Origin: a virus | Taxonomy: Duplodnaviria > Caudoviricetes | DNA length: 64,000 nt | IMG/VR virus record: IMGVR_UViG_2687453119_000006 | Span: 32,001 to 96,000 of that record | Strand: one strand, 5' to 3' | Shown here: positions 5,032 through 60,587 of the stretch, in pieces | How the letters are laid out: every line of letters begins with the position of its first letter | How positions within the stretch are numbered: the stretch's first letter is position 1 | Translations under genes and position numbers: made by a program | The notes under the pieces: model-generated | Told to the model about the DNA's origin: nothing | The model's database searches: none | The model's input: the letters and a program-made list of their open reading frames with translations, nothing else

Positions 5032-5475
5032 ATGCAGAAAACTGATGTGTTTGGCCTTCCCTGGCTTTCCTCAAAGCCAGAACGCGCAATCTTCGATGAG
5101 CTTCAGTACGCCTGCGTCTACGCGGTCGGTCCAACAGGGGGCCGGCCGCTCAGGATCGGCTGGGCACGCCAGCTCAAGGACCGGATGCAGGCCCTCCAGC
5201 TCGGGAGCTGGAAGGAACTGCGGATCCATCACATCGCCTGGGTCGCAGGCGACATGCTTGCCATCCGCCTGTTCAACGAGGCGACGGCCACCCTCGACAA
5301 GGCGAAGCGGAGGCTTGCGAACGACTGGTTCGACATCACGCCGGAGTTCGCTCAGCAGGCCATCCGCCTCGCCGCGGACAAGAGCGGGATCCAGACCATC
5401 ACGCACGGCGAGATGCTGCAGAAGGTGAGGAACATCCGGAAGAGCCGGATCGAGGACGTCATCAAGCGGGCCTAG
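5032..5475 (+). CDS. GIY-YIG / T5orf172-like domain protein
   Basis: CVYAVG..LRIGWA..KDRMQALQLG and NDWF motifs. Confidence 0.65.
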   Translation: MQKTDVFGLPWLSSKPERAIFDELQYACVYAVGPTGGRPLRIGWARQLKDRMQALQLGSWKELRIHHIAWVAGDMLAIRLFNEATATLDKAKRRLANDWFDITPEFAQQAIRLAADKSGIQTITHGEMLQKVRNIRKSRIEDVIKRA

Positions 5476-5799
5476 TCCGACTCGCTCCAGTACTTCCAGG
5501 TCGGCGACATGGCGTTCCAGCGGTCGAGCAGCTCCAGGAAGTGCATCCGGGACAGGAAGCGGGCAGAGCCTTCGGTCGTTGCCTCTTCGCCAGGTTGTGC
5601 CGGTAGAACTTGCCGACGTAGTCGCATCCAGGCTGGTCGTGTTCAATCGCCCGCAGGCTTGGTGACGATTCTCGGGCGTTCCGATCGTCATCCAGAAGTG
5701 GCGGCTCGACCGCGCCAACTAGATCGCGGTGCCGGTTGTTATGTCGGACGGTCGCGAAGGGCCGCCGCTGAAGCTGCGGTCGCGCCGTCGCAGGATCCA

Positions 5800-7458
5800 C
5801 TACATCTTGGTCGAAAGGATCTTGCACTTGCCCAAATTCTTGAAAAGGCTAGCTGGATAGGAGTCCGCATAATTGAGCTTTACGGCCGTGAGCAGCTTCG
5901 CAATGGTAGTATCGACTAGGCTTGGGATCTGGCCCTCTACCGAGACGAATGTCTTGCCTGAAGCCACCCCCAAAACGCTTAGGACGGCCCATTCGATGAA
6001 GCGATTTCCATGAACGCAGATGAGACCGTCACGCCCCGTGTACTTCTTCGATTCTGAGCTCAATGCCAGATCAACAGCCCGAAGTCCCTGCACTGCCTGC
6101 CAAACGTGGGGTCCAGTGACCCCGCCGTTGAAGAGCTGCTTGTAGGGCGCTTTTGACAGATCTTCCCAGAGCTTACCAATCTCGCGCTTCGCCTGGACGG
6201 CTAGCGATACGTCGGAGTTTGAGCATGCCAGCGCCACTGTTGCCTCCGTAAGGTCAAACCTCTTTGCGGCAGACCCGCTCGAAGCTCCCGACTTGTATGC
6301 ATACTCGACTCCCTCGATGTGGAGTTCTTGTCGAATTCTCTCCTGCTCGGGATCCAGAGCAACGAAATCACGCTTTTCAATCGCGTTCTGTGTGTTGGTG
6401 AACCTCGTAACCTCAGAGGCAAAGGCCGACGGGCTCTTTTCACTAGAGATTATTCGTAGCGGAACCATCGCTTTCTGAACTGACTCGGGATTTAGTGTCG
6501 CTGCCGCAAAGATCGAACCTACCGTTTGCGCGCCATTCACGACAGAGAAACCGGCGCATTCAAAGATGCCCGATTCGGTCGAGTTTCCGCCTATTGGCTT
6601 CTTCGCCACTCCGGATGCAACAACTGTGATACCGTTGTTGAAGTACCAGAAATCCTCCGGACGCTTCAATAGCGTGTCCACGATGTCCTGATTGACTTGG
6701 CTCGTCCCCAAGAACTGTCGAAGGTTCTTGTCGAACAATCGGCTACCGTTGACTTTCATCCAACTGGCAACGTCAGCGGCGCACACCTGGCCATAGACGC
6801 CGAAATGCGGTTCTTTTACTTGCCCCCATCCATATAGCTGAACTTCAGCCGATACCGGGGCTCCCGCCAACCCAGCCGCAACGGCTTTGTGCAGATCGCC
6901 CTGCTTCAGCACGCGCACGAACATGAGGTCAGACGTGTCATTTTGGGATGTCACGTAACTGTCGAGCGCAGCTTGGACCTCGACACTCAAGTCCTCTTGG
7001 CCGGTATGAGCTATGACGAGCACAAAATTCGCATTTGCGTCGAACAGAGCACTCTCAATGTCCGGCTTCTTAGCCTGTATTCGCGAATTTAGCGACGCGA
7101 TGTCGTTGTCGAGAAGTTTCTTCACGCCGTCGATAAACTTCAGGACCTCGCCGAGTTCAATGGACCCGTGTCCGTCCTCATGCCATTTTGTCTGGACCAG
7201 ATACAGAGTTCGATCGTTCGGACTGAAATGGACCAAATCGATACCGCCATCCTGCGCGCCGTCCGTCACTGACTTCGCCAGTTCTTCGATAGGCTCCTCA
7301 GTCATTTGCGAAACAGCCAGTGCGGCAAGCCCTCGCGTGAGAAAGGCCTTTTTGACCTGCTGCGGATCGGAATGATGAGCGTAGTCACTCATGTCGATCC
7401 GGCTGTCCAATTTGGACTTCAGATACCCCTCAGTTTGGGTAACGTGCAACTTGGACAT
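5800..7458 (-). CDS. AIPR family (abortive infection phage resistance) protein
   Basis: DGAQDGGID, FDKNLRQFLG, FWYFNNGITV, VVNGAQT and TNTQNAI motifs; lower GC than the flanks. Confidence 0.85.
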   Translation of the reverse strand: MSKLHVTQTEGYLKSKLDSRIDMSDYAHHSDPQQVKKAFLTRGLAALAVSQMTEEPIEELAKSVTDGAQDGGIDLVHFSPNDRTLYLVQTKWHEDGHGSIELGEVLKFIDGVKKLLDNDIASLNSRIQAKKPDIESALFDANANFVLVIAHTGQEDLSVEVQAALDSYVTSQNDTSDLMFVRVLKQGDLHKAVAAGLAGAPVSAEVQLYGWGQVKEPHFGVYGQVCAADVASWMKVNGSRLFDKNLRQFLGTSQVNQDIVDTLLKRPEDFWYFNNGITVVASGVAKKPIGGNSTESGIFECAGFSVVNGAQTVGSIFAAATLNPESVQKAMVPLRIISSEKSPSAFASEVTRFTNTQNAIEKRDFVALDPEQERIRQELHIEGVEYAYKSGASSGSAAKRFDLTEATVALACSNSDVSLAVQAKREIGKLWEDLSKAPYKQLFNGGVTGPHVWQAVQGLRAVDLALSSESKKYTGRDGLICVHGNRFIEWAVLSVLGVASGKTFVSVEGQIPSLVDTTIAKLLTAVKLNYADSYPASLFKNLGKCKILSTKM

Positions 7459-9095: not shown

Positions 9096-9503
9096 TCACT
9101 TGACCTTCCGCATGAAGCCGACGTTGACCATCACGGCGCCGTACTTGTTGCAGAACTGGCGGTTGCCCTTGTTGATGTCGTCCAGCAGGTAGTTCAGGTC
9201 GGCACGGACCTGCTGTGTCACCTCTGGGATCAGCTTCGTCCGGTCGTACTCGAAGTCCATGATCGCGAAGATCGCGTTCATCACGGCCGGCGCATAGGTG
9301 TCGTAGTCAGCGCCGACCTGGTCGGCAGCCTTCCGCATGGAGCCGTCGACGAACTCGTAGCTGGCGCCGCACTTCTGGCTGACGGCGTAGGCGATAACCC
9401 CCAGACTTATGAAGTCCTTGTTCACCTTGGTTGTTGCCTTGGCGGGAACGGCGAGAGCGAGCGTCAGCGCTACCGCCGACGCACACAGTGCGTGCAGTTT
9501 CAT
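9096..9503 (-). CDS. Secreted hypothetical protein
   Basis: Signal-peptide-like MKLHALCASAVALTLALAVPAKA; AAGGA RBS. Confidence 0.7.
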   Translation of the reverse strand: MKLHALCASAVALTLALAVPAKATTKVNKDFISLGVIAYAVSQKCGASYEFVDGSMRKAADQVGADYDTYAPAVMNAIFAIMDFEYDRTKLIPEVTQQVRADLNYLLDDINKGNRQFCNKYGAVMVNVGFMRKVK

Positions 9504-9529
9504 TGTCGTAGTTCCTTATTTGGGGGCGA

Positions 9530-9874
9530 TTAGTGCTCGCTCGGGAGCAAGATGACGCCGCTCTCGACCCAAAGGGTTATTTCGTCGAGCGGGAAGTCGG
9601 TGAACGTAATGTGCTCGCTGTGCAGGATGACATCGTCATCCTTGCAGGTGAGGGTGGCTGTGTTGTTGGTCACGACCAGCTGCCAGGCTTGGAAGTCCGC
9701 AGCTCGAATTTTCTTTTCGAGCTGCAACGTGGCGATCTTGTCGATCAGCCAGTAGGCCTGCGCGTTCTTCGCGAGGAACTGCACACCATCGGTGTAGCGC
9801 ACGCTCCGCATCAGACGGTGCTGGTAGTGGTTGTCGGTACCGGTGAAGTGGGCGAGGTCGGTCTTGGTGATCAT
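9530..9874 (-). CDS. DUF6876-like hypothetical protein
   Basis: FTGTDNHY..YTDGVQFLA..AYWLID..ITFTDFPL..ILLPSEH pattern. Confidence 0.65.
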   Translation of the reverse strand: MITKTDLAHFTGTDNHYQHRLMRSVRYTDGVQFLAKNAQAYWLIDKIATLQLEKKIRAADFQAWQLVVTNNTATLTCKDDDVILHSEHITFTDFPLDEITLWVESGVILLPSEH

Positions 9875-10040
9875 GTGCTCTCCGGCGTTGAGTCTTCGAT
9901 CTTGATCTTGAAGTTCTGTGAGACGATGCCGGAGGTCTGGCGAAGCACCAGATTGCCGCGGCTGCTGCTCACGATGGTTACGCCAAGCTCTCGCATGGCT
10001 TGCTGCGTGACCTTTGTCAGGTCGGTGACGGAATAGAGCT

Positions 10041-10307
10041 TCATTCGATCACCTCGTGTTCGCTGATGTCGACGTTGGGCGTGACGTATTCATCGTCGTG
10101 GCCCCGGACATCGTTGAGGACCTCTTGGGCCTCTTCGAGTTTGATGGGCCAATCGTCGGCCGTGGTATCCTCCGGAAGATCAGCGTCCTTGCGGATGATG
10201 TTGATCAGGTCGACGGCCTCGAGTTCGGCCAGCTCCTCGGTCGCGCACACCTTGACGATGCGGCCAGGCACGACGTGGTGAACGCCTTCGACAATCCAGA
10301 CCTTCAC
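10041..10307 (-). CDS. Hypothetical protein
   Basis: GTG start overlapping the upstream stop. Confidence 0.55.
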   Translation of the reverse strand: MKVWIVEGVHHVVPGRIVKVCATEELAELEAVDLINIIRKDADLPEDTTADDWPIKLEEAQEVLNDVRGHDDEYVTPNVDISEHEVIE

Positions 10308-10480
10308 TGTTTCTGCTCCTCGACCCAGGCTGTCTGTGCCTTGAGCGGAACTGCATTCCACTCGACGTCATTGCAGTTGCGATCCGCCCATTCGACCGCC
10401 TCGGCGCCGGTCTTGAACGGGCCGACGATGTCGATCCCGTCGAACGGGCTGCCGATCGCGACGACATGCATTCCAGTCAT
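10304..10480 (-). CDS. Hypothetical protein
   Basis: Short ORF, GGGAG RBS. Confidence 0.55.
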   Translation of the reverse strand: MTGMHVVAIGSPFDGIDIVGPFKTGAEAVEWADRNCNDVEWNAVPLKAQTAWVEEQKQ

Positions 10481-10485
10481 TGTTG

Positions 10486-10803
10486 CTACTCCCATGTTGG
10501 GCACCCGTTCTCGTCGACAGCGTCATCGCTGTTGCGCTCAGGCATGTGGTCGATGCTGCCTGGCCGACCGAGATCGAGGGGAGGATGAACATGCTCGACC
10601 GCTTCCTCGCGTCGCACTTCGGCGTCACGGATCTTGAGGATCGCCTGGTCGAGCTGGTCGCGAAGGTTGCGAGCCTGGGTAGGATCGAGCACCTCGCGGC
10701 AGCGCGTCCCGCCTTTCGGTCCCGTCAGGTAGATGACGACGCAGTCGTTCTCGCCATTGTCGTAGGCGGGACCGCTGGAAAATCCGCTGATGAACTCACG
10801 CAT
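10486..10803 (-). CDS. Hypothetical protein
   Basis: 105-aa ORF in the operon. Confidence 0.6.
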   Translation of the reverse strand: MREFISGFSSGPAYDNGENDCVVIYLTGPKGGTRCREVLDPTQARNLRDQLDQAILKIRDAEVRREEAVEHVHPPLDLGRPGSIDHMPERNSDDAVDENGCPTWE

Positions 10804-47431: not shown

Positions 47432-48301
47432 ATGCCGAGTTTCGAGTCACCCGCGCTGTACATCGACTTCGCGCGGCTGCCGCCGCCGCAGGTGATCGAG
47501 GAGATCGATTACGAGGTGCTCCTGAAGCGCTACCAGGCCAAGGTCCTGGAGCTGCGGCCGGAGCTGGCCGCCGCGATCGCGCTGGAGCAGTCGCCGACCA
47601 ACGTCATTCTCGAAGCCGAGTCCTACGGCGAGATGATCGTCCGCGAGCGCATCAATGCCGCGGCTCGAGCCTGCATGCTGCCGTTCGCTACGGGGTCTGA
47701 CCTCGAAGTGATCGGCGCCCGCTTCAATGTGCAGCGAATGGAAGGCGAGCTGGATCCTCGCCTCCGCCGACGAATTCAGCTCTCAATGGAGAGCTTCTCG
47801 ACCGCGGGTAGCCCCGGGTCGTACATCTTCCACGCCCTGAGCGTTTCGACCCAGGTCAAGGACGTCTCTGCCGTCGCCGAGCGCGGAACGGGCAGGGTGA
47901 CCGTCACGATCATGGCCGATGGCACCAACCCGGTGCCGAGTTCGACGCTTGTCGATGCCGTCTACGACCGATTGATGTCGGATGGCATCAAGCCGCTCAC
48001 GGACGACATTAGGGTCCTACCGGTCACCAAGATCCCGGTGGACCTTTCCGCCAACCTCACGCTCTACCCTGGCCCCGACGCTTCGCTGGTGATCGCCGAC
48101 GTCAACAAGTCGCTCACCTCGCTGCGCAACCGCGTCAGTCAGATCGGCATGGACCTGAAACGGTCCGCCGTCATCGCCGCCCTCACGCAGGAAGGCGTCC
48201 AGAACGTCGACATCGACTTCCTGGACGTCAACGTCGGGACGGGTGGTGTGGTCTGGATCAACTCGGCCAGCGTGAACGTGTCCAGCATCCGCGAGGAGTA
48301 A
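47432..48301 (+). CDS. Baseplate J-like protein
   Basis: LPPPQVIEEIDYE, FSTAGS.GSY.FHAL, KPLTD. Confidence 0.92.
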   Translation: MPSFESPALYIDFARLPPPQVIEEIDYEVLLKRYQAKVLELRPELAAAIALEQSPTNVILEAESYGEMIVRERINAAARACMLPFATGSDLEVIGARFNVQRMEGELDPRLRRRIQLSMESFSTAGSPGSYIFHALSVSTQVKDVSAVAERGTGRVTVTIMADGTNPVPSSTLVDAVYDRLMSDGIKPLTDDIRVLPVTKIPVDLSANLTLYPGPDASLVIADVNKSLTSLRNRVSQIGMDLKRSAVIAALTQEGVQNVDIDFLDVNVGTGGVVWINSASVNVSSIREE

Positions 48302-48304
48302 TCC

Positions 48305-49537
48305 ATGGCCGAGCGCCTTATGGAACATGTCCTGGCGCCGAACGCGACGATTTACGAGCGCGTCCTGGCCTCCCAGGTTGATCGGCTCCTGGCACTCGAT
48401 ACCGATCGGCTCCGCCGGCTCTGGGATCCTTACCGCTGTCACGTCGACGACCTGCCGTACCTGGCGTGGTCGTTCTCGGCGGACATCTGGGACACGAACT
48501 GGCCGGAGGCGAAGAAGCGCAAGGCTGTCGCCGATGCGATCGCGCACCACCGCCTGAAGGGTACGAAGGCCGGCATGGCCACGTACCTCGACCTGGTTGA
48601 CTGTAATCTCGATGACCTGATCGTCCCGCCTGCGCGTGGCTATCGGATTCCGGCCATGACGAACGACGAGTTCATGTCGTGGCTGGTGCATCTGCCGCAG
48701 ATCAGGATTTACCCCTTCGTGATCCGCGATCCGGCCGGGCCGCGTGACTTCCGGATGCCGACTTACACCTTCCGGAACGATAACTTCCGCGAGAAGAGCA
48801 TCGGCCCGAACATCTACGGCCGGAAGGCGTCGATCTACAAGAGCGGTGTCGAGGCCTTCGTCAAGCTGGAAGCGATGACCGAGTTCGGCGGCCAAGCCGT
48901 GGAGCGGGTCTACTTCGGCGATTTTGCAAGGCGGGACTATCACACCGATGGCTTCCGTGGTCACAAGTTCTACGAACTGACCGACGCGACCGACAACATC
49001 GTCACCGTTCGCATCAGCCAGGCCGCCTCCGACCTCGTGTCGCTGACGCCCGGTCTGACGCCGCAGGATGTCAAGCCGGTCCAGATCGCCGAGAAGCATA
49101 TCGTCCAGCCGGCGACGACGTTCCGCGCTTACAACGCCTCGTTCCGCGGCAACGGCAATTTCCGTCGTGAGACGGACGCGGCGCACTGGATCTACGATCG
49201 AGTGGCGCTGCACAACAAGGCCGACCTGCCGTCAGGTCTGTCAGCCAAGTCTTATCGCGGTCACATGCGGTACGGCATCCCGGCCTACACGGCTCAGGCG
49301 ACTGTTAGCGTTCCTCTGGTCCGCTCGAATGCCCAGGGCTTCGGTGGCCGCTTCCGCAACGGTTTCCGCGTCCCCACCGACATGAAGAAGCTCGACGACG
49401 CCTGCGGGGCGATCGTCACCGCCAAGCCACTCCGCGACACCGTCCTGGTCGACACGGTCACTCACCGCGTCGTCCGACTGAAGGACCGGCGAAAGCTGGG
49501 GACGTTCAAGCTCGGCGAAATCAGAAAGGTCGCCTGA
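48305..49537 (+). CDS. Tail protein I (P2 gpI-like), extended
   Basis: LWDP..C..LPYLAWSFS.D.W, HRLKGT. Confidence 0.88.
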   Translation: MAERLMEHVLAPNATIYERVLASQVDRLLALDTDRLRRLWDPYRCHVDDLPYLAWSFSADIWDTNWPEAKKRKAVADAIAHHRLKGTKAGMATYLDLVDCNLDDLIVPPARGYRIPAMTNDEFMSWLVHLPQIRIYPFVIRDPAGPRDFRMPTYTFRNDNFREKSIGPNIYGRKASIYKSGVEAFVKLEAMTEFGGQAVERVYFGDFARRDYHTDGFRGHKFYELTDATDNIVTVRISQAASDLVSLTPGLTPQDVKPVQIAEKHIVQPATTFRAYNASFRGNGNFRRETDAAHWIYDRVALHNKADLPSGLSAKSYRGHMRYGIPAYTAQATVSVPLVRSNAQGFGGRFRNGFRVPTDMKKLDDACGAIVTAKPLRDTVLVDTVTHRVVRLKDRRKLGTFKLGEIRKVA

Positions 49538-51834: not shown

Positions 51835-52050
51835 ATGGCAAAAGCAAAGAACGCGGCCACCGAAGAGGTGGTCGCGGTGGAGCCGCAGGCTCCCGAACCG
51901 GCTCCGATCATGTATGAGGTGACCCTGAACGGTCGCTTCACTCACATGGACTTTCCCTACCTGCCTTCGCATCACCACATCGTCGACAAGGCGATCTACG
52001 ATGCGATGGTCGAAGCGGGGGTAGTTGCCGATGTCAAGCAACTTTCCTGA
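51835..52050 (+). CDS. Hypothetical protein
   Basis: 71-aa ORF in the tail operon. Confidence 0.6.
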   Translation: MAKAKNAATEEVVAVEPQAPEPAPIMYEVTLNGRFTHMDFPYLPSHHHIVDKAIYDAMVEAGVVADVKQLS

Positions 52051-53725
52051 GCTTGTATTCAGCGACGACGAAGACTTCACGGCAGATCGATTGAACTTGG
52101 CGATGCAGGTGCTTGATCAGCGCCTGCGTTCGCTGGAGCCTTTTTCTCCGAGCTGGGAGCAGGCAGTCAACGATCTGCGTCTGGTCGGACTCTCTCGACT
52201 GAACGACGCCATCCTGCCGGCGTATCAGCGCATCCAGCTGCTGTCCACGCTCGGCTTCCTGTTCGCTGGCTCGTCCAGCGAAGTCGCTCTTACCCAGGAC
52301 ATGACCGCGACGTTTGTCATTGACGACGAGACGGAAAAGTCCCTGTTCACCCCGACGCCATTCCTGGCGCTGACCCGCTCCTCGACGATAGATGACTATG
52401 CGATTGCGCAGTTGATCTCGTATGAGCAGGCGACCGGCACCTTGATGGTGAAGGTCAAATCGATCACCGGCAGCCCTGGTCCTTTCACGGACTGGCAGAT
52501 CGGCGCCTGTGCGGCGTCAACCATCGCAGCGATGGCCTACTTCACGCAGATCGATGCGGCCCGCAACGCAGCCAACGTTGCAAAGGCAGCAACAGCTGCC
52601 GACCGCGTACAGACCGGTCTCGACCGCATCCAGACGGGTGTGGATCGGAATGCCGCGGCGCAGTCGGCTGTAGCAGCGTCTGCCTCTGCTGACCGAGCCG
52701 GCACCTGGGATCCGACCAACTACGCCCTCAAGTCGTATGTGGACGGCAAGATCCAAGCGCTGGTCGGCACCGCGCCGGCCACCCTCGACACGCTCGCGGA
52801 AATCGCGGCGCAGATGCAGGCGGACGAGAGCGGCTTTGCCGCGCTGTCCACCACGGTCTCCGGCAAGCTGACGGCAACGCAGAACCTGAACGACCTGACC
52901 GACAAGGCACAGGCTCGCATCAATCTGGGCGTCACTTTCGCCAACCCGACCAGCAAGTCGGGCCTAACGGCGGCGAACGGGTCGGCCGTTACCTACATGC
53001 GGTCTGATGCTGCTCCTGCGATCGACGTTTCGATCGCGCCGACCTGGACCAACAAGCACATCTTCCAGTGGAACTCTGGAGCGACATACTGCATCAACGT
53101 CCAGACCTATGGCGGCTTGACCATCTACGCGCCGGACCAGGGCTCGGCGTTCATGACGTTCCATCGCGGCGCATACGCGAGCCAGTTTGGGCTCGACGGT
53201 GACAACTACTACCGATGGGGTGGTTGGTCGGATGGTGCTGGCGGAGTCCGTATGTACCTGAGCCCTGGTGGCTTGTTGTACAGTGCAGGTTACGGCGCCT
53301 CGACGACGCCTGTTGGTGGTCAGGTGCGCGCGGCCGGCGACATCATCTACGGCCTGTCGGATCAACGTCTGAAGGACGACATCCAGATCATTGAAGATGC
53401 TCTGGAGAAGATCGACCAGCTCGATGGCGTCACCTGGGTTCAGAGCGATCTGGCCCGCGAGGTTGGTGCACCGGTTCAAGACCGTCGCAAGGCCGGTCTG
53501 TTGGCGCAGCAGCTGGAGAAGGTTCTGCCCGAAGCGGTCGGCCTGGCTCCGTTCGACACGAACAAGCTGATGAAGAGCCGTACGGGCTTGAACCTGCTGA
53601 ACATCCAGTACGAGCAGGTTTCTGGTCTGCTGGTGGAAGGCATCAAGGCGCTGAAGCGCAAGAACGAGGCGCTCGAAGACCGAGTCGCACGACTCGAAGC
53701 GATCATCGAGAAGCTGGGGGTGTAA
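52031..53725 (+). CDS. Tail fibre with C-terminal intramolecular chaperone (peptidase S74)
   Basis: APATLDTLAEIA, NLNDLTDK, SDQRLKDDI..ALEKI..GLLAQ and a terminal coiled coil. Confidence 0.9.
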   Translation: MSSNFPELVFSDDEDFTADRLNLAMQVLDQRLRSLEPFSPSWEQAVNDLRLVGLSRLNDAILPAYQRIQLLSTLGFLFAGSSSEVALTQDMTATFVIDDETEKSLFTPTPFLALTRSSTIDDYAIAQLISYEQATGTLMVKVKSITGSPGPFTDWQIGACAASTIAAMAYFTQIDAARNAANVAKAATAADRVQTGLDRIQTGVDRNAAAQSAVAASASADRAGTWDPTNYALKSYVDGKIQALVGTAPATLDTLAEIAAQMQADESGFAALSTTVSGKLTATQNLNDLTDKAQARINLGVTFANPTSKSGLTAANGSAVTYMRSDAAPAIDVSIAPTWTNKHIFQWNSGATYCINVQTYGGLTIYAPDQGSAFMTFHRGAYASQFGLDGDNYYRWGGWSDGAGGVRMYLSPGGLLYSAGYGASTTPVGGQVRAAGDIIYGLSDQRLKDDIQIIEDALEKIDQLDGVTWVQSDLAREVGAPVQDRRKAGLLAQQLEKVLPEAVGLAPFDTNKLMKSRTGLNLLNIQYEQVSGLLVEGIKALKRKNEALEDRVARLEAIIEKLGV

Positions 53726-53726
53726 G

Positions 53727-53960
53727 ATGGCTGTTCCGTCATCTGGCGCTGTCGGCTTCTCGACCGTCAACTCCGTCTTCGGCTACGGCATCGCGATGAG
53801 CAGCTACGTCGGCCGGCCCTACTACTACTACGAAGTGAACTGGGGCGTTAGGTCCGGCACCTTCCCAGGCTCCAACTTCCCGATGTCTCTCTTCTACGGG
53901 AAATCCAACCACGACGAATGGAACTGCGCCTGCGCCTGCGCCTGCGCGTGCGGCAAGTGA
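53727..53960 (+). CDS. Cys-rich fibre-tip-like protein / putative radical SAM substrate
   Basis: Starts 1 nt after the fibre stop; MAVPSSG..MSLFYGKS..WNCACACACACGK. Confidence 0.75.
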   Translation: MAVPSSGAVGFSTVNSVFGYGIAMSSYVGRPYYYYEVNWGVRSGTFPGSNFPMSLFYGKSNHDEWNCACACACACGK

Positions 53961-53966
53961 GGATCA

Positions 53967-54287
53967 ATGACCAAGCCACCGAGCACCACCTTCAGCTACC
54001 GGATCAATCACTGGAGCAAGGACGGCTGGGCTCGAGTCGAGTATCGGCACGAGACGCTCGGTAGCTTGGTCAAGCAGGTCTTCATCCCGCTGAACCATTC
54101 GGAAGAGGAGCAGCGTGGCGCCGTCATCATGCAGTTCCCCTGGCAATCCTTCCACGCCAGGTATCTTGAAATGTTGGCGCAGGCGGCTGCTCCGGCCCCC
54201 GCGGCAATGGAAGGACAATTCACGCACCGCATCGATCGTCCCATGGAGGATCCGGTCGGTTTGCCCATGGAAACCCAAAAGGTGTAG
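53967..54287 (+). CDS. Hypothetical protein (possible fibre chaperone or peptide-binding protein)
   Basis: GAGGA RBS, 106 aa. Confidence 0.65.
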   Translation: MTKPPSTTFSYRINHWSKDGWARVEYRHETLGSLVKQVFIPLNHSEEEQRGAVIMQFPWQSFHARYLEMLAQAAAPAPAAMEGQFTHRIDRPMEDPVGLPMETQKV

Positions 54288-54289
54288 CG

Positions 54290-54835
54290 ATGCAGTTCAG
54301 GCGCATCCGTTTCGAGAACTTCACGATCACGATCTTCACGGCGCATGCCGGCGAAGAGAGGGTCTGTCCTCCGTCTGAACTAACCCGCGGCCTGACCGCG
54401 TCAGACGCTCCGGCCATCGCTCACCTGCTCGAAGGCAAGGATGATGCTCGGCCGCTCCACACCATTCCGGTGTACACCAAGGGCGGCTTCGAGGCTCTCG
54501 GCGGCGATCACGCGCCGGACCCTCGCCCGGCTGGTAGCGGCGCCACTCAGTTCGTGAGGGGCATCGACAACTACAAGCTCCGCGCCACAGCGCCGGATAG
54601 CGAATATCACTGCATCACCCCGAAGAGCAAAGAGCCGGTGTTCTGGCAGCGCTCATTCGTCGGCGGGAAGGCCGGCGACACGTTCGAGGTTCTGCCCAAC
54701 AGCTACCTCTACATCGCAGAGGGCAAGATCGAGCTGGCTCACCAGACGTTCGTCGGCCCCACGATGCTTGAGATCACCAAGCCGCACACGGCCAAGATCA
54801 CCGATCCGGTGATGGGCGCCAAGCTCTGGCGCTGA
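54290..54835 (+). CDS. Hypothetical protein, possibly cupin-like
   Basis: Beta-rich; YLYIAEGKIEL resembles a cupin/pirin strand. Confidence 0.55.
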   Translation: MQFRRIRFENFTITIFTAHAGEERVCPPSELTRGLTASDAPAIAHLLEGKDDARPLHTIPVYTKGGFEALGGDHAPDPRPAGSGATQFVRGIDNYKLRATAPDSEYHCITPKSKEPVFWQRSFVGGKAGDTFEVLPNSYLYIAEGKIELAHQTFVGPTMLEITKPHTAKITDPVMGAKLWR

Positions 54836-54845
54836 AAGGAGCCCC

Positions 54846-55475
54846 ATGCCCACGATCCGCTTCCTGACGCCTGCCGACTTTGGCGATATGTGCGACATCA
54901 TCGACAAGCACAGCAGCGGCATGGGCGCATGGTGCAACGATCCGACCGCCCCGGTGAAACCGAACTTCCGCCAGCTCGCGAAGGACCATGTGGACCTTTG
55001 CTTCGAGCAGGCTATGTCGAACTTCTGGGGCTATTTTGACGACTCCGGCAAGCTCGTCGCCTGGGTCAACTTCACCCGATGGGCTGATCCGATCAACATC
55101 ACCATCCGCTCCGTAATCGAAGATCCGGACGCCGACCTGCCGCGCCGCGATGGCGCTGTCTGGTCGGAAGCCGCGGTCGATCTGGCGAACTGGGGCATGG
55201 GGTACTTCTGGTCGGAGGGCGTCGAGAATTTCTGGTGCCGCATGTATGCCGGCAAAGAGGATCGGCACATCTCGGATCACCCCAACTGCATGCTGACTCA
55301 ATACCAGCGCGAAAGGGTCAAGTTCATCCGGGCCGGCGAGCAACCGCCGCCCGAGTATCGCAGGGTCAGCTGGTCGCCGTTTGACGACGACACAGCGATC
55401 TATCGGTTCTCCGACACATTGCCGCTGCTGGCGTATCTCGAAAGTGCAAATGATCCGACTGGAAATGCTGAGTGA
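54846..55475 (+). CDS. GNAT-fold-like protein
   Basis: TIRFLTPAD N-terminus and FWGYFDDSGKLVAWV; AAGGAG RBS. Confidence 0.55.
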   Translation: MPTIRFLTPADFGDMCDIIDKHSSGMGAWCNDPTAPVKPNFRQLAKDHVDLCFEQAMSNFWGYFDDSGKLVAWVNFTRWADPINITIRSVIEDPDADLPRRDGAVWSEAAVDLANWGMGYFWSEGVENFWCRMYAGKEDRHISDHPNCMLTQYQRERVKFIRAGEQPPPEYRRVSWSPFDDDTAIYRFSDTLPLLAYLESANDPTGNAE

Positions 55476-56748
55476 GAACGGAGAGGTCGTGCCTCTGTTC
55501 TACGATCAGCACACCTCACGTCTGCTCGACAAGGACGGCTTCAAGGCCGTCGACTACACCAACAACCCGATGTATGACCCGGAGCCATCGCAGCGCCGGC
55601 CGTTCATCGCGGTGGACTACGATCAGCCAGGGCGCAAGGTCCGCGAGGTCCGGAAGCTGAAGATCCAGCTCGGCCTCGGCTGCAACAAGTCCTGCTCATA
55701 CTGCCTCCAGGCGATACAGGTTCAGAAGGCCGCGGCGACAAGCACGCGGGATGCGTCGGTATTTCTGGCGAACATCGACGGCTGGATCGTCAACCCGGAG
55801 GGGATGGAGAAGGTCGAGCTGTGGGGTGGCGAGCCGCTGCTCTACTGGAAGAAGATCGAGATCCTCGCCCCGGCGTTGATCGCGAAGTTCCCGAACGCTC
55901 AGTTCTCGATCATCACGAACGGCGAGCTGCTCACTCGAGAGATCGTCGATCAGCTCAAGGCCTGGAATTTCTCTCTGACCATCAGCCATGATGGCCCGGG
56001 GCAGGCGGTAAGGGGAGACGACCCGTTCGAAGACCCTCACAAATTTGCCATGATCCAGTACGCGCAGAAGACGTTTCATCCGCGCTTCTCGTTCAACGCT
56101 GTGCTCACCCCTAAGAGCCACGACGTCAACGCCATCATCGACTGGTTCCACGATTACTTCCCGGGCTGCAACGTCGGCTTCGAGGGAGTCGTTCACAGCT
56201 ACGCCAGCGACCCGGCATCGATCTTCTCGATCGAGCAGCTGGCGCAGTTCAGCGACACGCTGTCCCGACAGCTGGCCGATGGATCGGCTCTCCGATCCCC
56301 CGCGATCATGGACAAGCTGCGCAGGTCGGTGAACTCGTTCGTCAATGAGCAGTCCTCGGAGACGCTGTTCCAGAAGTGCGGCATGGACATGCCGGAGTAT
56401 CTGGCGGTCGACCTGAAGGGCAACGTCATGACCTGCCAGAACGTGGGCGCCAACGGCAACCACAAGATCGGGCACGTCAGCGACTTCGAGAACATCGCGC
56501 TCAACACCTCCAAGCACTGGAGCAAGCGCCCAGAGTGCCAGAGCTGCCCCGTGCTGCAGCTTTGCCAAGGCGCCTGCATGTACCAGGGAGGGGACAACTG
56601 GACGCACAGCTGCAACGCTGAGTTCTTCTACAACCTGGCCTTCTTCAGGGCCGCGCTCTTCATCCTCACGGGACGATGGCTGGTTGGTTTCAGCGGCGAT
56701 ATCGTGCGTCCGAAACTGAAGAAGGATCGCGATGTCGAAGTTCGCTGA
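55450..56748 (+). CDS. Radical SAM enzyme with SPASM domain
   Basis: CNKSCSYC, WGGEPL, ITNG, SHDG; SPASM KCG..GNVMTC..CQSCPVLQLCQGAC..C. Confidence 0.95.
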   Translation: MIRLEMLSENGEVVPLFYDQHTSRLLDKDGFKAVDYTNNPMYDPEPSQRRPFIAVDYDQPGRKVREVRKLKIQLGLGCNKSCSYCLQAIQVQKAAATSTRDASVFLANIDGWIVNPEGMEKVELWGGEPLLYWKKIEILAPALIAKFPNAQFSIITNGELLTREIVDQLKAWNFSLTISHDGPGQAVRGDDPFEDPHKFAMIQYAQKTFHPRFSFNAVLTPKSHDVNAIIDWFHDYFPGCNVGFEGVVHSYASDPASIFSIEQLAQFSDTLSRQLADGSALRSPAIMDKLRRSVNSFVNEQSSETLFQKCGMDMPEYLAVDLKGNVMTCQNVGANGNHKIGHVSDFENIALNTSKHWSKRPECQSCPVLQLCQGACMYQGGDNWTHSCNAEFFYNLAFFRAALFILTGRWLVGFSGDIVRPKLKKDRDVEVR

Positions 56749-57463
56749 ACTGGTGGGGATTCTTGACAAAATACCCCACCTGTTCTTAGAAAAGGCCTAC
56801 GATGCGACACGTCTACAAACTGAGTTAGACGCCATCGATCCGGCACTTTTCGTGCCCTTCCGTTCCAAGAGCAGAAACGCTGACCACATCGCCGAGTTCT
56901 GGCGAGGTCTTTCGCTGGTCGCTCCGAGCGGATCTCTCCATGACGATTTGACCGAGGTTCCATACGAAGGCCGCACAGGCTACGTCTGGACCCCGGTCGC
57001 CGAGAGCAGCCCCTACATCAAGCAGCTCGTGACCGAGCTTGGCGGGGAGGGGCAGCGCGCGCGGCTCATGTGCGTGAAGGCAGGCGGCAGTCTGACCTGG
57101 CACCGCCATGGATCAGAGCTTTCGATGATCGTCGGCGCCCACGGCCGGCGGCCGAACTGGTACGAGCTGATCGTCCACGTCCCCATCCGCACCAACCCGG
57201 ACTTCAGCTACGAGGTCATCGACACTCGGGTCTACGAGCTGGCGGACTACTCGGCCGGGAAGCTGGAGATCCACCGGAAGAACTACCCGAAGGGCGAGGC
57301 CTGGGCGTTCAACGGTGCTCACTACCACAACGTCTTCAACCGCTCCGAGACCGAAGACCGCTACGCCATCATGCTGACCCTCGACATCAGGATGAGGAAG
57401 ACGTTCGACATCGTGTCGAAGGCGGTCGAGAGCTACGAGGGGCCACTCCTGACAGGGCTCTGA
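56732..57463 (+). CDS. Asp/Asn beta-hydroxylase-like Fe(II) oxygenase
   Basis: RARLM..GGSLTWHRH, HVPIRTNP, GEAWAFN..HNVFN..EDR. Confidence 0.8.
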   Translation: MSKFAELVGILDKIPHLFLEKAYDATRLQTELDAIDPALFVPFRSKSRNADHIAEFWRGLSLVAPSGSLHDDLTEVPYEGRTGYVWTPVAESSPYIKQLVTELGGEGQRARLMCVKAGGSLTWHRHGSELSMIVGAHGRRPNWYELIVHVPIRTNPDFSYEVIDTRVYELADYSAGKLEIHRKNYPKGEAWAFNGAHYHNVFNRSETEDRYAIMLTLDIRMRKTFDIVSKAVESYEGPLLTGL

Positions 57464-57464
57464 A

Positions 57465-57887
57465 ATGGAAACCATCATCTCCGCGAAGCCGCCCGACGTG
57501 CTCGCGGACAACTTCATTGTCGCCACGAACGAAGACTGGGTTCGTGAGTGGCAAATCAAGAACAGCGGCGTGATCGTCCCGATCCAGCCCGACTGGAAGC
57601 TGTACATGCAGCTGCAGCGGACATCGACCGGCGATCTCGGCGTGACGTGCTCTACCGACAATGGCCGCCTCGTGGTCGTCGATCAGGGCGCCGGCAAGTT
57701 CGGTCTCAGGCTGAAGCAGGCGGACGCCGCCCAGATCAGCCCTGCGGGCTACCAATATGACATCGTCCTCGTTGCTGGCGATGGCATCTACCGCCTGGTG
57801 ACAGGCACCATCACGGTCGACCAGGGGATCACCAACATCCCCGGCCAGGAGAAGTGGATTCACTATCCGCTGATCCTTCGACCGTAA
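57465..57887 (+). CDS. BppU/LtfC-like beta-sandwich tail adaptor
   Basis: YQYDIVL..YRLVTGTITVDQGIT. Confidence 0.65.
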   Translation: METIISAKPPDVLADNFIVATNEDWVREWQIKNSGVIVPIQPDWKLYMQLQRTSTGDLGVTCSTDNGRLVVVDQGAGKFGLRLKQADAAQISPAGYQYDIVLVAGDGIYRLVTGTITVDQGITNIPGQEKWIHYPLILRP

Positions 57888-57915
57888 CTCATCGCCAACA
57901 ACCTTCACCTCCACG

Positions 57916-57940
57916 CCGCCCCCTTCCGGGCGGTTTTTTT
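57916..57940 (+). terminator. Intrinsic terminator ending the baseplate-fibre-radical SAM unit
   Basis: CCGCCC/GGGCGG stem plus T7. Confidence 0.75.
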
Positions 57941-57954
57941 GTTTGGGAGAACCC

Positions 57955-59382: not shown

Positions 59383-59480
59383 GCGCTCTCGACGAAATCG
59401 CCCAAGCACCAACCCACAAGCCCAAGCAAGCCGATCCGGACTCCGGTCTGGGTCGGCTCTGTTTTTGGCCGGAGAATTAA

Positions 59481-60026: not shown

Positions 60027-60046
60027 GAGCCTGAGCTGAACTACCG

Positions 60047-60081
60047 AGGCCTCGCCAATCCCGGCGGGGCCTTTTCTTTTT
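60047..60081 (+). terminator. Intrinsic terminator
   Basis: AGGCCTCGCC/GGCGGGGCCT stem plus T-tract. Confidence 0.7.
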
Positions 60082-60106: not shown

Positions 60107-60391
60107 ATGTCTACCCCCACCCTCCAGGTTTTCAATCTCCAGTTCCCGTTCGAGTACCGCGGCGCGCAGTACATCGAGTTCAAGGCTCGCCGGCCCCGTG
60201 TGCGCGACCTCCGCAACTTCATCAAGAACGTGGACAAGGACGGCGTCGCCGCCATGGAGAAGGTTCTCGCTGACCTGTGCGAGGTCGACGAGAAGATCAT
60301 CTCCGAAATCGACATCGAGGACTTCGCTCCGATGAAGGCATGGTTCGAAGGTTTTTTGAAGCCCATGCTGAACGAATCGACCGAATCCTAA
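60107..60391 (+). CDS. Tail assembly chaperone (gpE-like)
   Basis: LQFP..RRPRVRD..EIDIEDF; between the tube and tape measure genes. Confidence 0.85.
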   Translation: MSTPTLQVFNLQFPFEYRGAQYIEFKARRPRVRDLRNFIKNVDKDGVAAMEKVLADLCEVDEKIISEIDIEDFAPMKAWFEGFLKPMLNESTES

Positions 60392-60540
60392 ACGACTCGT
60401 TCCCCATCTTCGAGCGTTTCGGTTGGACGCTCGGAGATGTCGAGGCACTGGATTGGTTCGACTTCATGCTGGTCGCTGACGGCGTCCAGGAACTGAACAA
60501 GCGCGACGCTGAGGCTCGCGCCAGAGCGGCTCAGGGCTAA
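60350..60540 (+). CDS. -1 frameshift extension of the tail chaperone (gpE'-like)
   Basis: Slippery GGTTTTTTG at 60350-60358; the -1 frame encodes FGWTLGDVEALDW. Confidence 0.75.
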
Positions 60541-60587
60541 CGCCCTGGGCCTTTTCTTTTTGATTCTACTCACCACCGGAGCGGTTG

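What the first reader, a model, noticed from the sequence alone, without database searches (positions are those of the whole stretch)
52031..57940. RiPP-like radical SAM/SPASM modification cassette built into the tail-fibre operon
Seen: between the S74-chaperone tail fibre and the sheath gene are seven co-oriented genes with gaps of 10 nt or less, or overlaps. They encode a 77-aa protein ending NCACACACACGK, a 106-aa unknown, a cupin-like protein, a GNAT-like protein, a radical SAM enzyme (CxxxCxxC plus a SPASM Cys set), an Asp/Asn-hydroxylase-like oxygenase and a tail adaptor. The first clear terminator follows them at 57916. Known: radical SAM/SPASM enzymes next to short Cys-rich ORFs mature sactipeptides and ranthipeptides (thioether crosslinks), and P2/Mu-type tail modules do not normally contain such enzymes. 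Inference: the phage post-translationally modifies a virion receptor-binding component using RiPP-type chemistry, possibly affecting host range or stability. I know of no characterised system with this layout.
Basis: partly seen in the sequence, partly recalled or inferred. Interest (0 to 1): 0.93.

Follow-up and report, generated by a model that had tools for sequence, protein, structure and literature searches.

The report
Radical-SAM cassette for cysteine-tailed fibre-tip protein
A prophage of a soil Bradyrhizobium-like bacterium encodes, right behind its tail-fibre gene, a tiny fibre-accessory protein ending in alternating cysteines plus an iron-sulfur (radical SAM) enzyme and three helper enzymes, a pairing that recurs in many unrelated phages and suggests that phages chemically finish the tip of the fibre that recognises the host.

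Summary
Seven tightly packed co-oriented genes lie between an S74-type tail fibre and the sheath gene. They include a 77-aa protein ending NCACACACACGK and a radical SAM/SPASM enzyme. In 43 of 58 non-redundant phage loci carrying a homologous enzyme, a sense-strand ladder of at least 4 alternating Cys lies within 3 kb; the antisense figure is 2 of 58. New here: residues 1-60 of the small protein match the N-terminal module of proteins encoded directly after tail-fibre genes, one of which continues into a Pfam GP38 adhesin domain. Those ladder-less loci hold no such enzyme (0 in 80 loci). The neighbours model as cupin and GNAT folds, and the last enzyme is Asp/Asn-hydroxylase-like. Most likely the enzyme cross-links the Cys tail of a fibre-tip accessory protein. 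Neither the chemistry nor virion incorporation is shown. This scan noted the same enzyme-ladder pairing before on other DNA. My six paper searches on the pairing found no description of it. It is a new variant of radical SAM protein cross-linking.

The parts
52025..53725 (+). Tail fibre, 566 aa. It has a C-terminal S74 intramolecular-chaperone domain (residues 445-566 = nt 53357-53722; the SDQRLK motif starts at residue 445).
   Evidence: Pfam PF13884 E 9.9e-14. 28 PHROG tail-fibre families. Motif position.
53727..53960 (+). cys77: 77-aa fibre-accessory protein. Residues 1-60 (53727-53906) are the N-terminal 'post-fibre' module. Then comes an invariant E64-W65 and the Cys-X ladder. It starts 1 nt after the fibre's stop codon.
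   Evidence: 45 distinct family members, all with EW before the ladder. hhalign to P0225 97%, to MinM2 MM2_12 94.8%, to JC1 gp60 81%.
53925..53951 (+). Cys ladder C67-A-C-A-C-A-C-A-C75, preceded by N66 and followed by G-K-stop. It is encoded by (TGCGCC)3 TGCGCG TGC.
   Evidence: The ladder is the only part that matches the ladder proteins of other phages (hhalign 90%, 11 columns).
53967..54287 (+). u106: 106-aa protein of no known family. It is conserved only in this sub-family and always lies just upstream of u181. A role as recognition or chaperone partner is my guess, not tested.
   Evidence: No Pfam, PHROG or NCBIfam hit. Homologues in 13 of 91 loci. Alignment A7.
54290..54835 (+). u181: two-barrel cupin-fold protein. 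The classical metal ligand set is not conserved: H107 (in E105-Y106-H107-C108) is the only invariant histidine.
   Evidence: AF2 pLDDT 79.1, pTM 0.74 from 8 sequences. Foldseek PDB top hits are cupins. VIA Z about 10 to the pirin YhhW, PA5104 and HutD, 148-155 residues aligned; nearly all of the 50 listed rows are annotated as cupin-fold (double-stranded beta-helix) proteins. Invariant columns.
54846..55475 (+). u209: GNAT-fold protein, a putative acyl or acetyl transferase.
   Evidence: AF2 pLDDT 82.6, pTM 0.80 from 6 sequences. 490 PDB chains with E<=0.001, the top ones GNAT acetyltransferases including RimI. Only 58 relatives among 1.84 billion representatives.
55450..56748 (+). Radical SAM/SPASM enzyme, 432 aa, with CxxxCxxC and a 7-Cys SPASM motif. 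The N-terminal extension before the core is only about 60 residues.
   Evidence: phrog_1802 E 4.6e-55. Closest solved chains are 8vpo_A (2.9e-21), anSME 4k36 and 5wgg_A.
56732..57463 (+). oxy243: cupin-type oxygenase related to Asp/Asn beta-hydroxylases. H124, H126 and H199 are invariant.
   Evidence: Pfam PF05118 E 0.0026, below cut-off. hhalign 94.5%, E 8e-08 over 131 columns, to a phage family whose member hits PF05118 at 5.4e-10. Invariant columns.
57465..57887 (+). u140: fibre-module protein of unknown role. It is not an obligate part of the cassette: it is absent from L003 and L004, and in other phages it lies upstream of the fibres.
   Evidence: phrog_1084 1.8e-09 and phrog_3304 5.4e-06. 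Gene maps.
57915..57944 (+). Terminator-like hairpin plus T-run that closes the fibre/cassette transcription unit before the sheath gene.

Best explanation
The cassette matures a small fibre-associated protein. cys77 is translated right after the S74-type fibre. Its first ~60 residues are a module that many phages place at the start of the gene following a tail-fibre gene. In other members a variable 'head' follows, often glycine-rich and in one case a Pfam GP38 adhesin domain. In cys77 the head is replaced by a 12-residue tail, N-(C-A)4-C-G-K. The radical SAM/SPASM enzyme acts on this tail. Most likely it makes thioether (sactionine or ranthionine type) cross-links between the Cys sulfurs and carbons of the intervening or neighbouring Ala/Asn/Asp residues, producing a rigid, protease- and redox-resistant knot. 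The Asp/Asn-hydroxylase-like oxygenase, the GNAT-fold protein, the cupin-fold protein and u106 are tailoring or recognition partners specific to this Bradyrhizobium-type sub-family. The finished protein is proposed to sit on the distal end of the fibre after the fibre's S74 chaperone domain has cut itself off, and to contribute to binding or stability. What is shown: gene layout, enzyme motifs, folds, module homology, and the statistical pairing of enzyme with ladder. What is inferred: that the enzyme's substrate is cys77 (my odds 0.8); that the reaction is thioether cross-linking (0.5); that cys77 ends up on the virion fibre tip (0.55).
For: (1) Enzyme-ladder pairing. 43 of 58 non-redundant (90% identity) enzyme groups have a sense-strand run of at least 4 alternating Cys within 3 kb, against 2 of 58 on the antisense strand. 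The density is 55 hits in 315 kb near the enzyme, against 4 in 518 kb further away on the same strand. Most ladders lie 0-3 residues before a stop codon.
(2) Negative control. 80 loci (580 kb) hold the same N-terminal module. 69 module ORFs were found there, none with a ladder. These loci contain no homologue of the enzyme, by hmmsearch or by tblastn. The enzyme therefore tracks the ladder, not the module or the fibre.
(3) Fibre context. The enzyme lies in the tail-fibre modules of Ralstonia phage RSP15 and Achromobacter phages JWF and 2-1. An S74-like ORF is present in 32 of 58 representative loci.
(4) Module homology. cys77 residues 1-60 match P0225 residues 1-59 (hhalign 97%, E 1.1e-10), and P0225 residues 75-199 hit Pfam GP38 above its cut-off (26 vs 25 bits). 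The same module heads MinM2 MM2_12 and Burkholderia phage JC1 gp60, each starting within 4 nt of the end of an annotated tail-fibre gene. Of 55 distinct module ORFs in viral contigs, 30 directly follow an ORF that ends in an S74-like domain. Of 6 upstream ORFs scanned, 5 hit tail PHROGs.
(5) A fused relative. P0224 has a cys77-like body, a CACACDCVCAC ladder and then a weak Hint-like domain, as seen in fibre-type ladder proteins of other phages (JWF gp028).
(6) Enzyme type. The best NCBIfam scores are to Cys-thioether maturases (PapB 1e-20, QhpD 3.7e-18, CcpM 1e-16). The full SPASM Cys set is invariant.
(7) Tail composition. In 45 distinct family members the residues between the ladder cysteines are A 68, N 40, D 31 and others 9 (of 148), and the residue before the first Cys is N in 42 of 45. 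A review states that Asn is the native acceptor of the beta-thioether synthase NxxcB and that Ala, Gln and Asp are tolerated (PMC9389541, passages read).
(8) Precedent for protein substrates. CrpC/CrpA (PMC13692751, abstract and Discussion read) and QhpD/QhpC (PMC7876137, abstract read).
Against: No tool shows a modification, an interaction or virion incorporation. The enzyme scores far below every equivalog cut-off (PapB 74 vs 340; QhpD 65 vs 453; anSME 43 vs 349), so no chemistry can be transferred by homology. Its pre-core N-terminus is about 60 residues, against about 107 in the closest solved relative, so a canonical recognition domain may be missing.
Fifteen of 58 groups lack a ladder of at least 4 Cys within 3 kb. 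Of these, 3 have under 1.1 kb of upstream sequence. Three have weaker, interrupted ladders (L003 and L016; L019). Three have very long (Cys-Lys)n ladders about 5.5-10.5 kb upstream of the enzyme. Six, including phage RSP15, have none found.
The cys77 body is not homologous to the other phages' ladder carriers; only the ladder matches. Typical module proteins work without any such enzyme. A module protein could also be an assembly chaperone rather than a virion part. In the JC1 virion proteomics table gp60 is not among the 16 listed proteins, but neither are fibres gp57 and gp59 (PMC9144972, passages and table read).
The AF2 models rest on 8 and 6 sequences. u181 lacks a conserved metal triad. 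In L004 my coordinates for the u209 homologue translated with one in-frame stop, both with and without the last codon; I did not place the stop, and a coordinate slip is not excluded. The cassette is rare: 1 of 301 genomes of the genus sample.
Confidence: 0.55

Rival explanations
1. The Cys-X tail is a metal-binding site (Fe, Zn, Cu or an Fe-S cluster) of the fibre tip. The radical SAM enzyme makes a different change, for example Cys to formylglycine as anaerobic sulfatase-maturing enzymes do, or has another substrate.
For: Alternating Cys are good metal ligands (my knowledge). The JWF homologue was deposited as 'anaerobic sulfatase-maturating enzyme'. anSME 4k36 is the second-best solved relative (1.5e-15). 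The CrpA authors also consider metal binding (PMC13692751 Discussion).
Against: anSME family score is 43 against a cut-off of 349, lower than PapB or QhpD. The tail has no C/S-x-P/A-x-R sulfatase motif (the motif is recalled). Metal binding alone would not explain why the enzyme is absent wherever the ladder is absent.
Confidence: 0.13
2. cys77 is the precursor of a diffusible RiPP (bacteriocin, metallophore or signal) carried as prophage cargo. It is released at lysis and is not part of the virion.
For: Small size, Cys-rich C-terminus and RiPP-type enzymes. An N-terminal body could act as a leader. Phage-borne biosynthetic clusters are reported (bioRxiv 10.1101/2020.10.01.322628, search listing only).
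Against: No protease, exporter or immunity gene lies in the unit. The unit sits inside the late fibre operon, closed by one terminator. The start codon is 1 nt after the fibre's stop. The 'leader' is a module shared with proteins that follow fibre genes and carry adhesin-like heads. In other phages the ladder is part of fibre-length or Hint-capped proteins.
Confidence: 0.1
3. cys77 is a tail-fibre assembly chaperone (Tfa-like) that binds the fibre tip only during folding and is discarded. The ladder and its enzymes tune that transient role.
For: It occupies the position held by fibre-assembly genes in P2-like modules (gene order; the P2 map is recalled). The neighbour u140 hits a 'tail fibre assembly' PHROG. 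JC1 gp60 was not detected in virions.
Against: The fibre already carries its own S74 intramolecular chaperone. One module protein has a GP38 adhesin domain and another hits a 'host specificity' PHROG (phrog_2056, 1.4e-06). Four dedicated enzymes are a high cost for a discarded helper (inference).
Confidence: 0.12
4. The enzymes modify the large fibre (or another virion protein), not cys77. The ladder protein is an unrelated neighbour.
For: Adjacency alone does not identify the substrate. 6 of 58 enzyme groups show no ladder at all.
Against: The window's fibre has no Cys run. Across phages whose fibres are unrelated, the ladder is the feature that co-varies with the enzyme.
Confidence: 0.05

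Closest known systems
PapB/PapA (freyrasin ranthipeptide; NCBIfam NF047865) and NxxcB/NxxcA (streptococcal Cys-to-Asn beta-thioether)
   Same: A radical SAM/SPASM enzyme next to a Cys-rich substrate. It is the best-scoring named family (1e-20). The acceptor set Asn/Ala/Asp reported for NxxcB (PMC9389541) equals the residues between the ladder cysteines.
   Different: The score is 74 bits against a cut-off of 340. There is no full N-terminal recognition domain. The substrate spacing is C-x-C, not C-x3-D or N-x-x-C. The substrate is a fibre-module protein in a phage late operon, not a leader-core peptide with protease and exporter.
QhpD/QhpC/QhpG maturation of the quinohemoprotein amine dehydrogenase gamma subunit (TIGR03906; PMC7876137, abstract read)
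   Same: A radical SAM enzyme installs several thioether links inside a small protein that stays part of a larger assembly. An oxygenase then acts on a Trp of the same substrate. cys77 has an invariant Trp next to the ladder and oxygenase-like neighbours.
   Different: 65 bits against a cut-off of 453. There is no dehydrogenase partner, no flavoprotein and no signal peptide. The context is a virion module.
CrpC/CrpA of Methanococcus voltae (PMC13692751, abstract and Discussion read)
   Same: A SPASM radical SAM enzyme shown to put ranthionine cross-links on a Cys-rich protein rather than a peptide. Enzyme-substrate contact goes through N-terminal protein domains.
   Different: It is archaeal and cellular, with a 28.8-kDa substrate whose function is unknown. 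I did not test homology to the window's enzyme.
T2/S16-type gp38 tail-fibre adhesins (Pfam PF05268)
   Same: The gene lies directly after the distal fibre gene. An N-terminal part is followed by a variable head. One relative of the cys77 module (P0225) carries the GP38 domain, and many others have glycine-rich heads (G fraction 0.23-0.39).
   Different: cys77 itself has no GP38 match. Its head is a 12-residue Cys ladder. That gp38's N-terminus attaches it to the fibre is recalled knowledge, and attachment was not tested for this module.
Cyanophage tandem dioxygenase arrays (Iyer et al. 2010, PMC2938197, passages read) and radical SAM cassettes in pelagimyophage host-recognition clusters (PMC7029224, passages read)
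   Same: Several 2OG/cupin oxygenases, and radical SAM cassettes, lie in or beside phage structural or host-recognition regions. I see the same enzyme families beside the enzyme's homologues.
   Different: In the passages I read, those papers interpret the arrays as secondary-metabolite genes, or only note that the cassettes are present. Those passages do not mention a Cys ladder or fibre substrates.

Membership tests
Radical SAM superfamily (PF04055) | CxxxCxxC cluster motif and a family score above the cut-off | tested here: met
   41 bits against 29.5. C78, C82 and C85 are invariant in 22 sequences.
SPASM-domain radical SAM enzymes (TIGR04085) | C-terminal 7-Cys motif for two auxiliary 4Fe-4S clusters | tested here: met
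   39.7 bits against 27. C310, C329, C363, C366, C372, C376 and C388 are invariant. Cluster binding itself was not tested.
PapB-family ranthipeptide maturase (NF047865) | Equivalog score of at least 340 bits | tested here: not met
   74.3 bits. It is the best-scoring family but not a member.
QhpD (TIGR03906) | Equivalog score of at least 453 bits; a qhp operon partner | tested here: not met
   65.4 bits. No dehydrogenase genes in the unit.
Anaerobic sulfatase-maturing enzyme (TIGR03942) | Equivalog score of at least 349 bits; a sulfatase-motif substrate | tested here: not met
   43.1 bits. No sulfatase gene and no such motif in cys77 (the motif is recalled).
RiPP biosynthetic gene cluster (classical) | Precursor with a removable leader, a recognition element (RRE), and a leader protease and/or exporter | tested here: inconclusive
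   No protease or transporter family was found in the seven genes. The enzyme's pre-core region is about 60 aa, against about 107 in 8vpo_A.
Peptidase_S74 fibre (PF13884) | C-terminal intramolecular chaperone domain | tested here: met
   51.8 bits against 22, residues 445-505.
GP38 tail-fibre adhesin (PF05268) | Match to the GP38 model | tested here: not met
   cys77 has no hit even at E<=10. Only its N-terminal module is shared with P0225, which does match GP38 (26 bits against 25).
'Post-fibre' N-terminal module family (unnamed; alignment A8) | A module of about 57 aa at residue 1 of the ORF, with the ORF starting within a few nt of the end of a fibre gene | tested here: met
   hhalign 97%, 94.8% and 81%. 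The window gap is 1 nt. 30 of 55 distinct members follow an S74-ended ORF.
GNAT acyltransferases | GNAT fold; an acyl-CoA binding motif | tested here: inconclusive
   The fold is met (490 PDB chains with E<=0.001). No Pfam or NCBIfam GNAT model matches. The CoA motif was not examined.
Cupin superfamily | Double-stranded beta-helix fold; His/Glu metal site | tested here: inconclusive
   The fold is met (Z about 10, 148-155 residues aligned). The only invariant histidine is H107, so no conserved set of metal-binding histidines is seen.
Asp/Asn beta-hydroxylase (PF05118) | Family score of at least 22.6 bits; metal-binding His residues | tested here: inconclusive
   18 bits, below the cut-off. Profile-profile 94.5% to a phage family that passes. 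H124, H126 and H199 are invariant.

The most novel reading that the evidence does not exclude
The matured Cys ladder is itself the host-recognition or anchoring head of a fibre-tip adhesin. A conserved attachment module can carry either a glycine-rich GP38-like head or a 12-residue peptide. Radical SAM cross-linking, hydroxylation and acylation would turn that peptide into a rigid, non-proteinogenic knot. Phage host recognition would then depend partly on a RiPP-like structure built after translation. The ladder is encoded by a hexanucleotide repeat, which could let its length change quickly. A bolder sub-reading, at about 5% on its own: the invariant Glu-Trp before the ladder, together with the oxygenases, gives a Cys-Trp quinone-like cross-link as in QhpC.
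Probability: 0.3. Interest if true: 0.9.

Novelty: new variant of a known kind. Interest (0 to 1): 0.78.

Why it matters
Tail-fibre tips decide which bacteria a phage can infect, and they are treated as plain folded protein. If a large set of phages finish these tips with radical SAM chemistry, three things follow. At least 587 homologous stretches lie in one viral collection, and the enzyme occurs in myo-, sipho- and jumbo-type contexts. First, sequence-based host-range prediction and fibre engineering would miss an essential enzymatic step. Second, radical SAM cross-linking would gain a new class of substrates: virion proteins that must survive outside the cell. Third, the many orphan oxygenase and radical SAM genes in phage 'host-recognition' regions would get a testable role. 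This window offers a compact test case: a 77-aa substrate and four candidate tailoring genes, in a prophage of a non-pathogenic soil bacterium.

Tried and rejected
Profile comparison of the cys77 family with the common ladder proteins of other phages matched only the 11-column ladder. I therefore dropped the idea that they are one family. PHROG scans of 15 such proteins gave nothing useful.

u181, u209 and u106 have no profile relation to the recurrent accessory families of other loci. They occur only in the Bradyrhizobium-type loci and L016 (one search found 8 loci, the same set plus one fragment).

The Atlas gave only weak leads (Cupin_7 in 22% of one cluster; Acetyltransf_1 in 20%; DUF1999). 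I did not use them as evidence.

Single queries P0174 and P0176 found nothing.

tblastn of cys77 against cultured phages gave no match. PDB sequence searches with the module (A8) and with P0225 gave nothing meaningful.

A genus-wide co-occurrence table was not possible, because only 1 of 301 genomes holds the enzyme. The window's own provirus record holds one copy each of cys77 and the enzyme.

Sequencing runs: no RNA holder is listed. Contigs of four DNA runs cover the cassette at about 99.4% identity (38 differences in 5916 nt), but the ladder repeat was skipped by the tool, so ladder-length variation could not be assessed.

The JC1 virion proteomics are uninformative: neither gp60 nor fibres gp57 and gp59 are listed. 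Two papers on JWF relatives held nothing on the enzyme. An eLife 2020 paper and a 2025 cyanophage paper mention radical SAM enzymes in other contexts only.

Nine paper searches returned listings. Six of them bear on the pairing; none returned a paper describing it. Supplements were closed. The Iyer 2010 and Dieter 2026 supplements might bear on this.

Equal 'longest contig' lengths link 12 cys77-family proteins to enzyme homologues on 10 contigs. That is only an inference from matching lengths.

Full report
**Layout.** The window is part of a 114.5-kb provirus record. Its closest relatives are Bradyrhizobium contigs (81-86% identity for the enzyme). PHROG matches give a P2-like late order: baseplate wedge (47432-48301), tail protein (48305-49537), a 752-aa protein (phrog_17470), a 71-aa ORF, the fibre, the cassette, then sheath (phrog_23), tube and tail chaperone.

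The fibre (52025-53725) ends in a Peptidase_S74 chaperone domain. Seven co-oriented ORFs follow, with spacings of 1, 6, 2 and 10 nt, overlaps of 26 and 17 nt, then 1 nt. A terminator-like hairpin at 57915-57934 closes the unit. G+C is not distinctive.

**The enzyme.** ORF 55450-56748 has the radical SAM motif and a complete 7-Cys SPASM motif, all invariant in 22 homologues of 40-78% identity. It passes the Pfam Radical_SAM and NCBIfam SPASM cut-offs.

Its best named families are Cys-thioether maturases (PapB 1e-20, QhpD 3.7e-18, CcpM 1e-16). Every one is far below its equivalog cut-off. The closest solved chains are 8vpo_A, the anaerobic sulfatase maturase 4k36 and 5wgg_A. In 8vpo_A the aligned core begins at residue 107; here it begins near residue 60.

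The family is large and phage-associated. phrog_1802 matches at 4.6e-55. There are 2170 proteins with E<=1e-10 among 5937 candidates. At least 594 stretches in IMG/VR matched the search patterns, and 587 were confirmed by tblastn.

In cultured phages the homologue lies in the fibre module. In JWF the order is central fibre J, gp027, a 483-aa Hint-annotated fibre-type protein, gp029, the enzyme, gp031, terminator. RSP15 has a comparable arrangement.

I called + strand ORFs in 91 loci and clustered them. Small proteins of 55-111 aa recur between an S74-type fibre and the enzyme, often in 2-3 tandem copies. They end in NCNCNCNCRC, NCNCACYC, NCDCNCDCFC and similar tails. 2OG/cupin oxygenases and a roughly 300-aa protein recur beside them.

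I collapsed the enzymes at 90% identity into 58 groups. 43 groups have a sense-strand run of at least 4 alternating Cys within 3 kb, against 2 on the antisense strand. That is 55 hits in 315 kb near the enzyme, against 4 in 518 kb further away.

Of the 15 groups without such a ladder:
- 3 lack upstream sequence;
- 3 have interrupted ladders in homologous small ORFs;
- 3 have very long (Cys-Lys)n ladders about 5.5-10.5 kb upstream of the enzyme;
- 6, including RSP15, show none.

An S74-like ORF is present in 32 of 58 representative loci.

**The small protein of this window.** cys77 has 45 distinct relatives, mostly labelled Bradyrhizobium where a name is given. All keep Glu-Trp before the ladder. 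The next residue is Asn in 42 of 45. The residues between the cysteines are Ala 68, Asn 40, Asp 31 and others 9. Twenty-five of 45 have five ladder Cys. The end is GK in 32 and SK in 10. The ladder DNA is a hexanucleotide repeat, (TGCGCC)3 TGCGCG TGC.

The body of cys77 is not related to the ladder carriers of other phages; only the ladder aligns. A search among longer proteins gave two informative relatives.
- P0224 is a cys77-like body with a CACACDCVCAC ladder followed by a weak Hint-like domain.
- P0225 begins with the cys77 module (hhalign 97%, E 1.1e-10, residues 1-59) and continues into a region that passes Pfam GP38, the tail-fibre adhesin model (26 bits against 25).

The same module starts MinM2 MM2_12 (94.8%) and Burkholderia phage JC1 gp60 (81%; glycine-rich C-terminus). 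Each begins within 4 nt of the end of an annotated tail-fibre gene.

In viral contigs, 126 stretches encode the module and 80 loci were kept. Of the 69 module ORFs detected there, 63 carry the module from residue 1 and 5 more within the first 11 residues. They are 50-679 aa long, and their C-terminal parts are often 23-39% glycine. Of 55 distinct ones, 30 directly follow an ORF ending in an S74-like domain. Of 6 upstream ORFs scanned, 5 hit tail or tail-fibre PHROGs.

None of these 69 ORFs has a ladder, and none of the 80 loci (580 kb) contains a homologue of the enzyme. So the module marks a fibre-accessory or adhesin-like protein, and the enzyme appears only when the head is a Cys ladder.

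**The other genes.**
- oxy243 is related to Asp/Asn beta-hydroxylases. Pfam is sub-threshold. hhalign gives 94.5% to a phage family that passes PF05118. Three histidines are invariant.
- u181 models as a two-barrel cupin: pLDDT 79; Z about 10 to pirin-like proteins and HutD; nearly all of the 50 listed rows are annotated as cupin-fold proteins. It has no conserved metal triad.
- u209 models as a GNAT fold: pLDDT 83; 490 PDB chains with E<=0.001, with RimI among the top hits. It has only 58 relatives among 1.84 billion representatives.
- u106 has no match anywhere.
- u140 is a fibre-module protein that other phages place upstream of their fibres. It is missing in L003 and L004. I do not count it as part of the cassette.

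cys77, u106, u181, u209, the enzyme and oxy243 are all kept in L016, where the enzyme is only 52% identical.

**Mechanism.** I propose that the enzyme cross-links the ladder of cys77. NxxcB-type chemistry accepts exactly the Asn/Ala/Asp set found between the cysteines (PMC9389541). Protein-sized substrates have precedents in QhpC and CrpA. Hydroxylation and acylation would follow. The finished protein would sit on the fibre end that the S74 domain's self-cleavage exposes.

None of these steps is shown. Rival readings are listed with their odds: a metal site or other chemistry; a diffusible RiPP; a discarded assembly chaperone; the fibre as the substrate.

**Prior knowledge.** Six of my paper searches bear on the pairing. 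None returned a paper describing a radical SAM enzyme paired with Cys ladders on phage fibre proteins. Iyer et al. 2010 describe cyanophage dioxygenase arrays as metabolite genes. A pelagimyophage paper notes radical SAM cassettes in host-recognition clusters. Supplements were closed.

This scan's earlier notes describe the same pairing on other DNA. I re-derived the pairing independently. What I add for this window is the module homology, the ladder-less negative control, and the fold assignments of the sub-family's accessory genes.

Noticed in passing
L005 (= L009, L014) 5348-5812 and 9283-10769: The Bradyrhizobium hipponense locus has two tandem cys77 paralogues and two tandem oxy243 paralogues, plus a membrane protein that hits Pfam FA_desaturase in its L016 homologue. 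Matching contig lengths suggest that two other lineages also carry two cys77 paralogues (P0132/P0148 and P0135/P0153). Co-duplication of the ladder protein and the hydroxylase hints that they pair.
   Followed up: partly
L056 2428, L062/L063 1910, L064 3240 (+ strand): Very long ladders of about 25 Cys-Lys repeats (CNCKCKCQCKCK...) lie about 5.5-10.5 kb upstream of the enzyme homologue, with about 105-116 residues before the stop codon.
   Followed up: no
L065, L067, L074, L079, L081, L084-L090 (ORF just downstream of the enzyme): In this clade a roughly 290-330-aa protein (cluster 17) encoded after the enzyme carries an internal CNCACNC about 165-180 residues before its stop. It is followed by several oxygenase-like genes, including a bona fide PF05118 member.
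   Followed up: no
L032 7370-8224; L054 7094-7921; JWF gp028 (L002 5679-7130): Ladder proteins continue into a domain starting C-F-L-(A/G)-G-S, which looks like a self-cleaving Hint domain. JWF gp028 is annotated as a Hint family protein and holds CNCDCNCNCSC 175 residues before its stop.
   Followed up: partly
L015, L019, L026, L030, L032 (cluster 36): Proteins of about 320-375 aa beside the enzyme carry an S-G-G-(I/L)-D-S motif. I recall this as the PP-loop ATP-pyrophosphatase signature. Pfam gave no hit for the one member scanned.
   Followed up: no
L068 6663-7518; L080 6649-7529; L035 7598-8393; L019 1904-2565: Three tandem paralogous small fibre-type proteins per locus, most ending in a ladder. 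Three different chains might form a heterotrimer; this is speculation.
   Followed up: no
L004 7397-8026: With my coordinates the u209 homologue of Bradyrhizobium sp. SZCCHNR1093 translated with one in-frame stop, though tblastn aligns all 209 residues at 80% identity. It may be a pseudogene, a sequencing error or a coordinate slip.
   Followed up: no
window 59429-59458, 60046-60073, 60528-60551: Strong terminator-like hairpins (10-13 pairs) follow the sheath gene, the tube gene and the overlapping ORF downstream of the tail-chaperone gene (60277-60540).
   Followed up: no
window 52025-57940: Near-identical copies (38 differences in 5916 nt) occur in contigs of an isolate run and of soil and root metagenome runs; 20 runs from 14 studies hold the stretch. 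The single difference listed in cys77 (53732 T>C) is in the third base of codon 2.
   Followed up: partly
L033, L036, L039, L041-L044, L046: Many IMG/VR provirus contigs end within about 150 nt after the enzyme gene, as if the cassette marks the edge of the predicted prophage.
   Followed up: no
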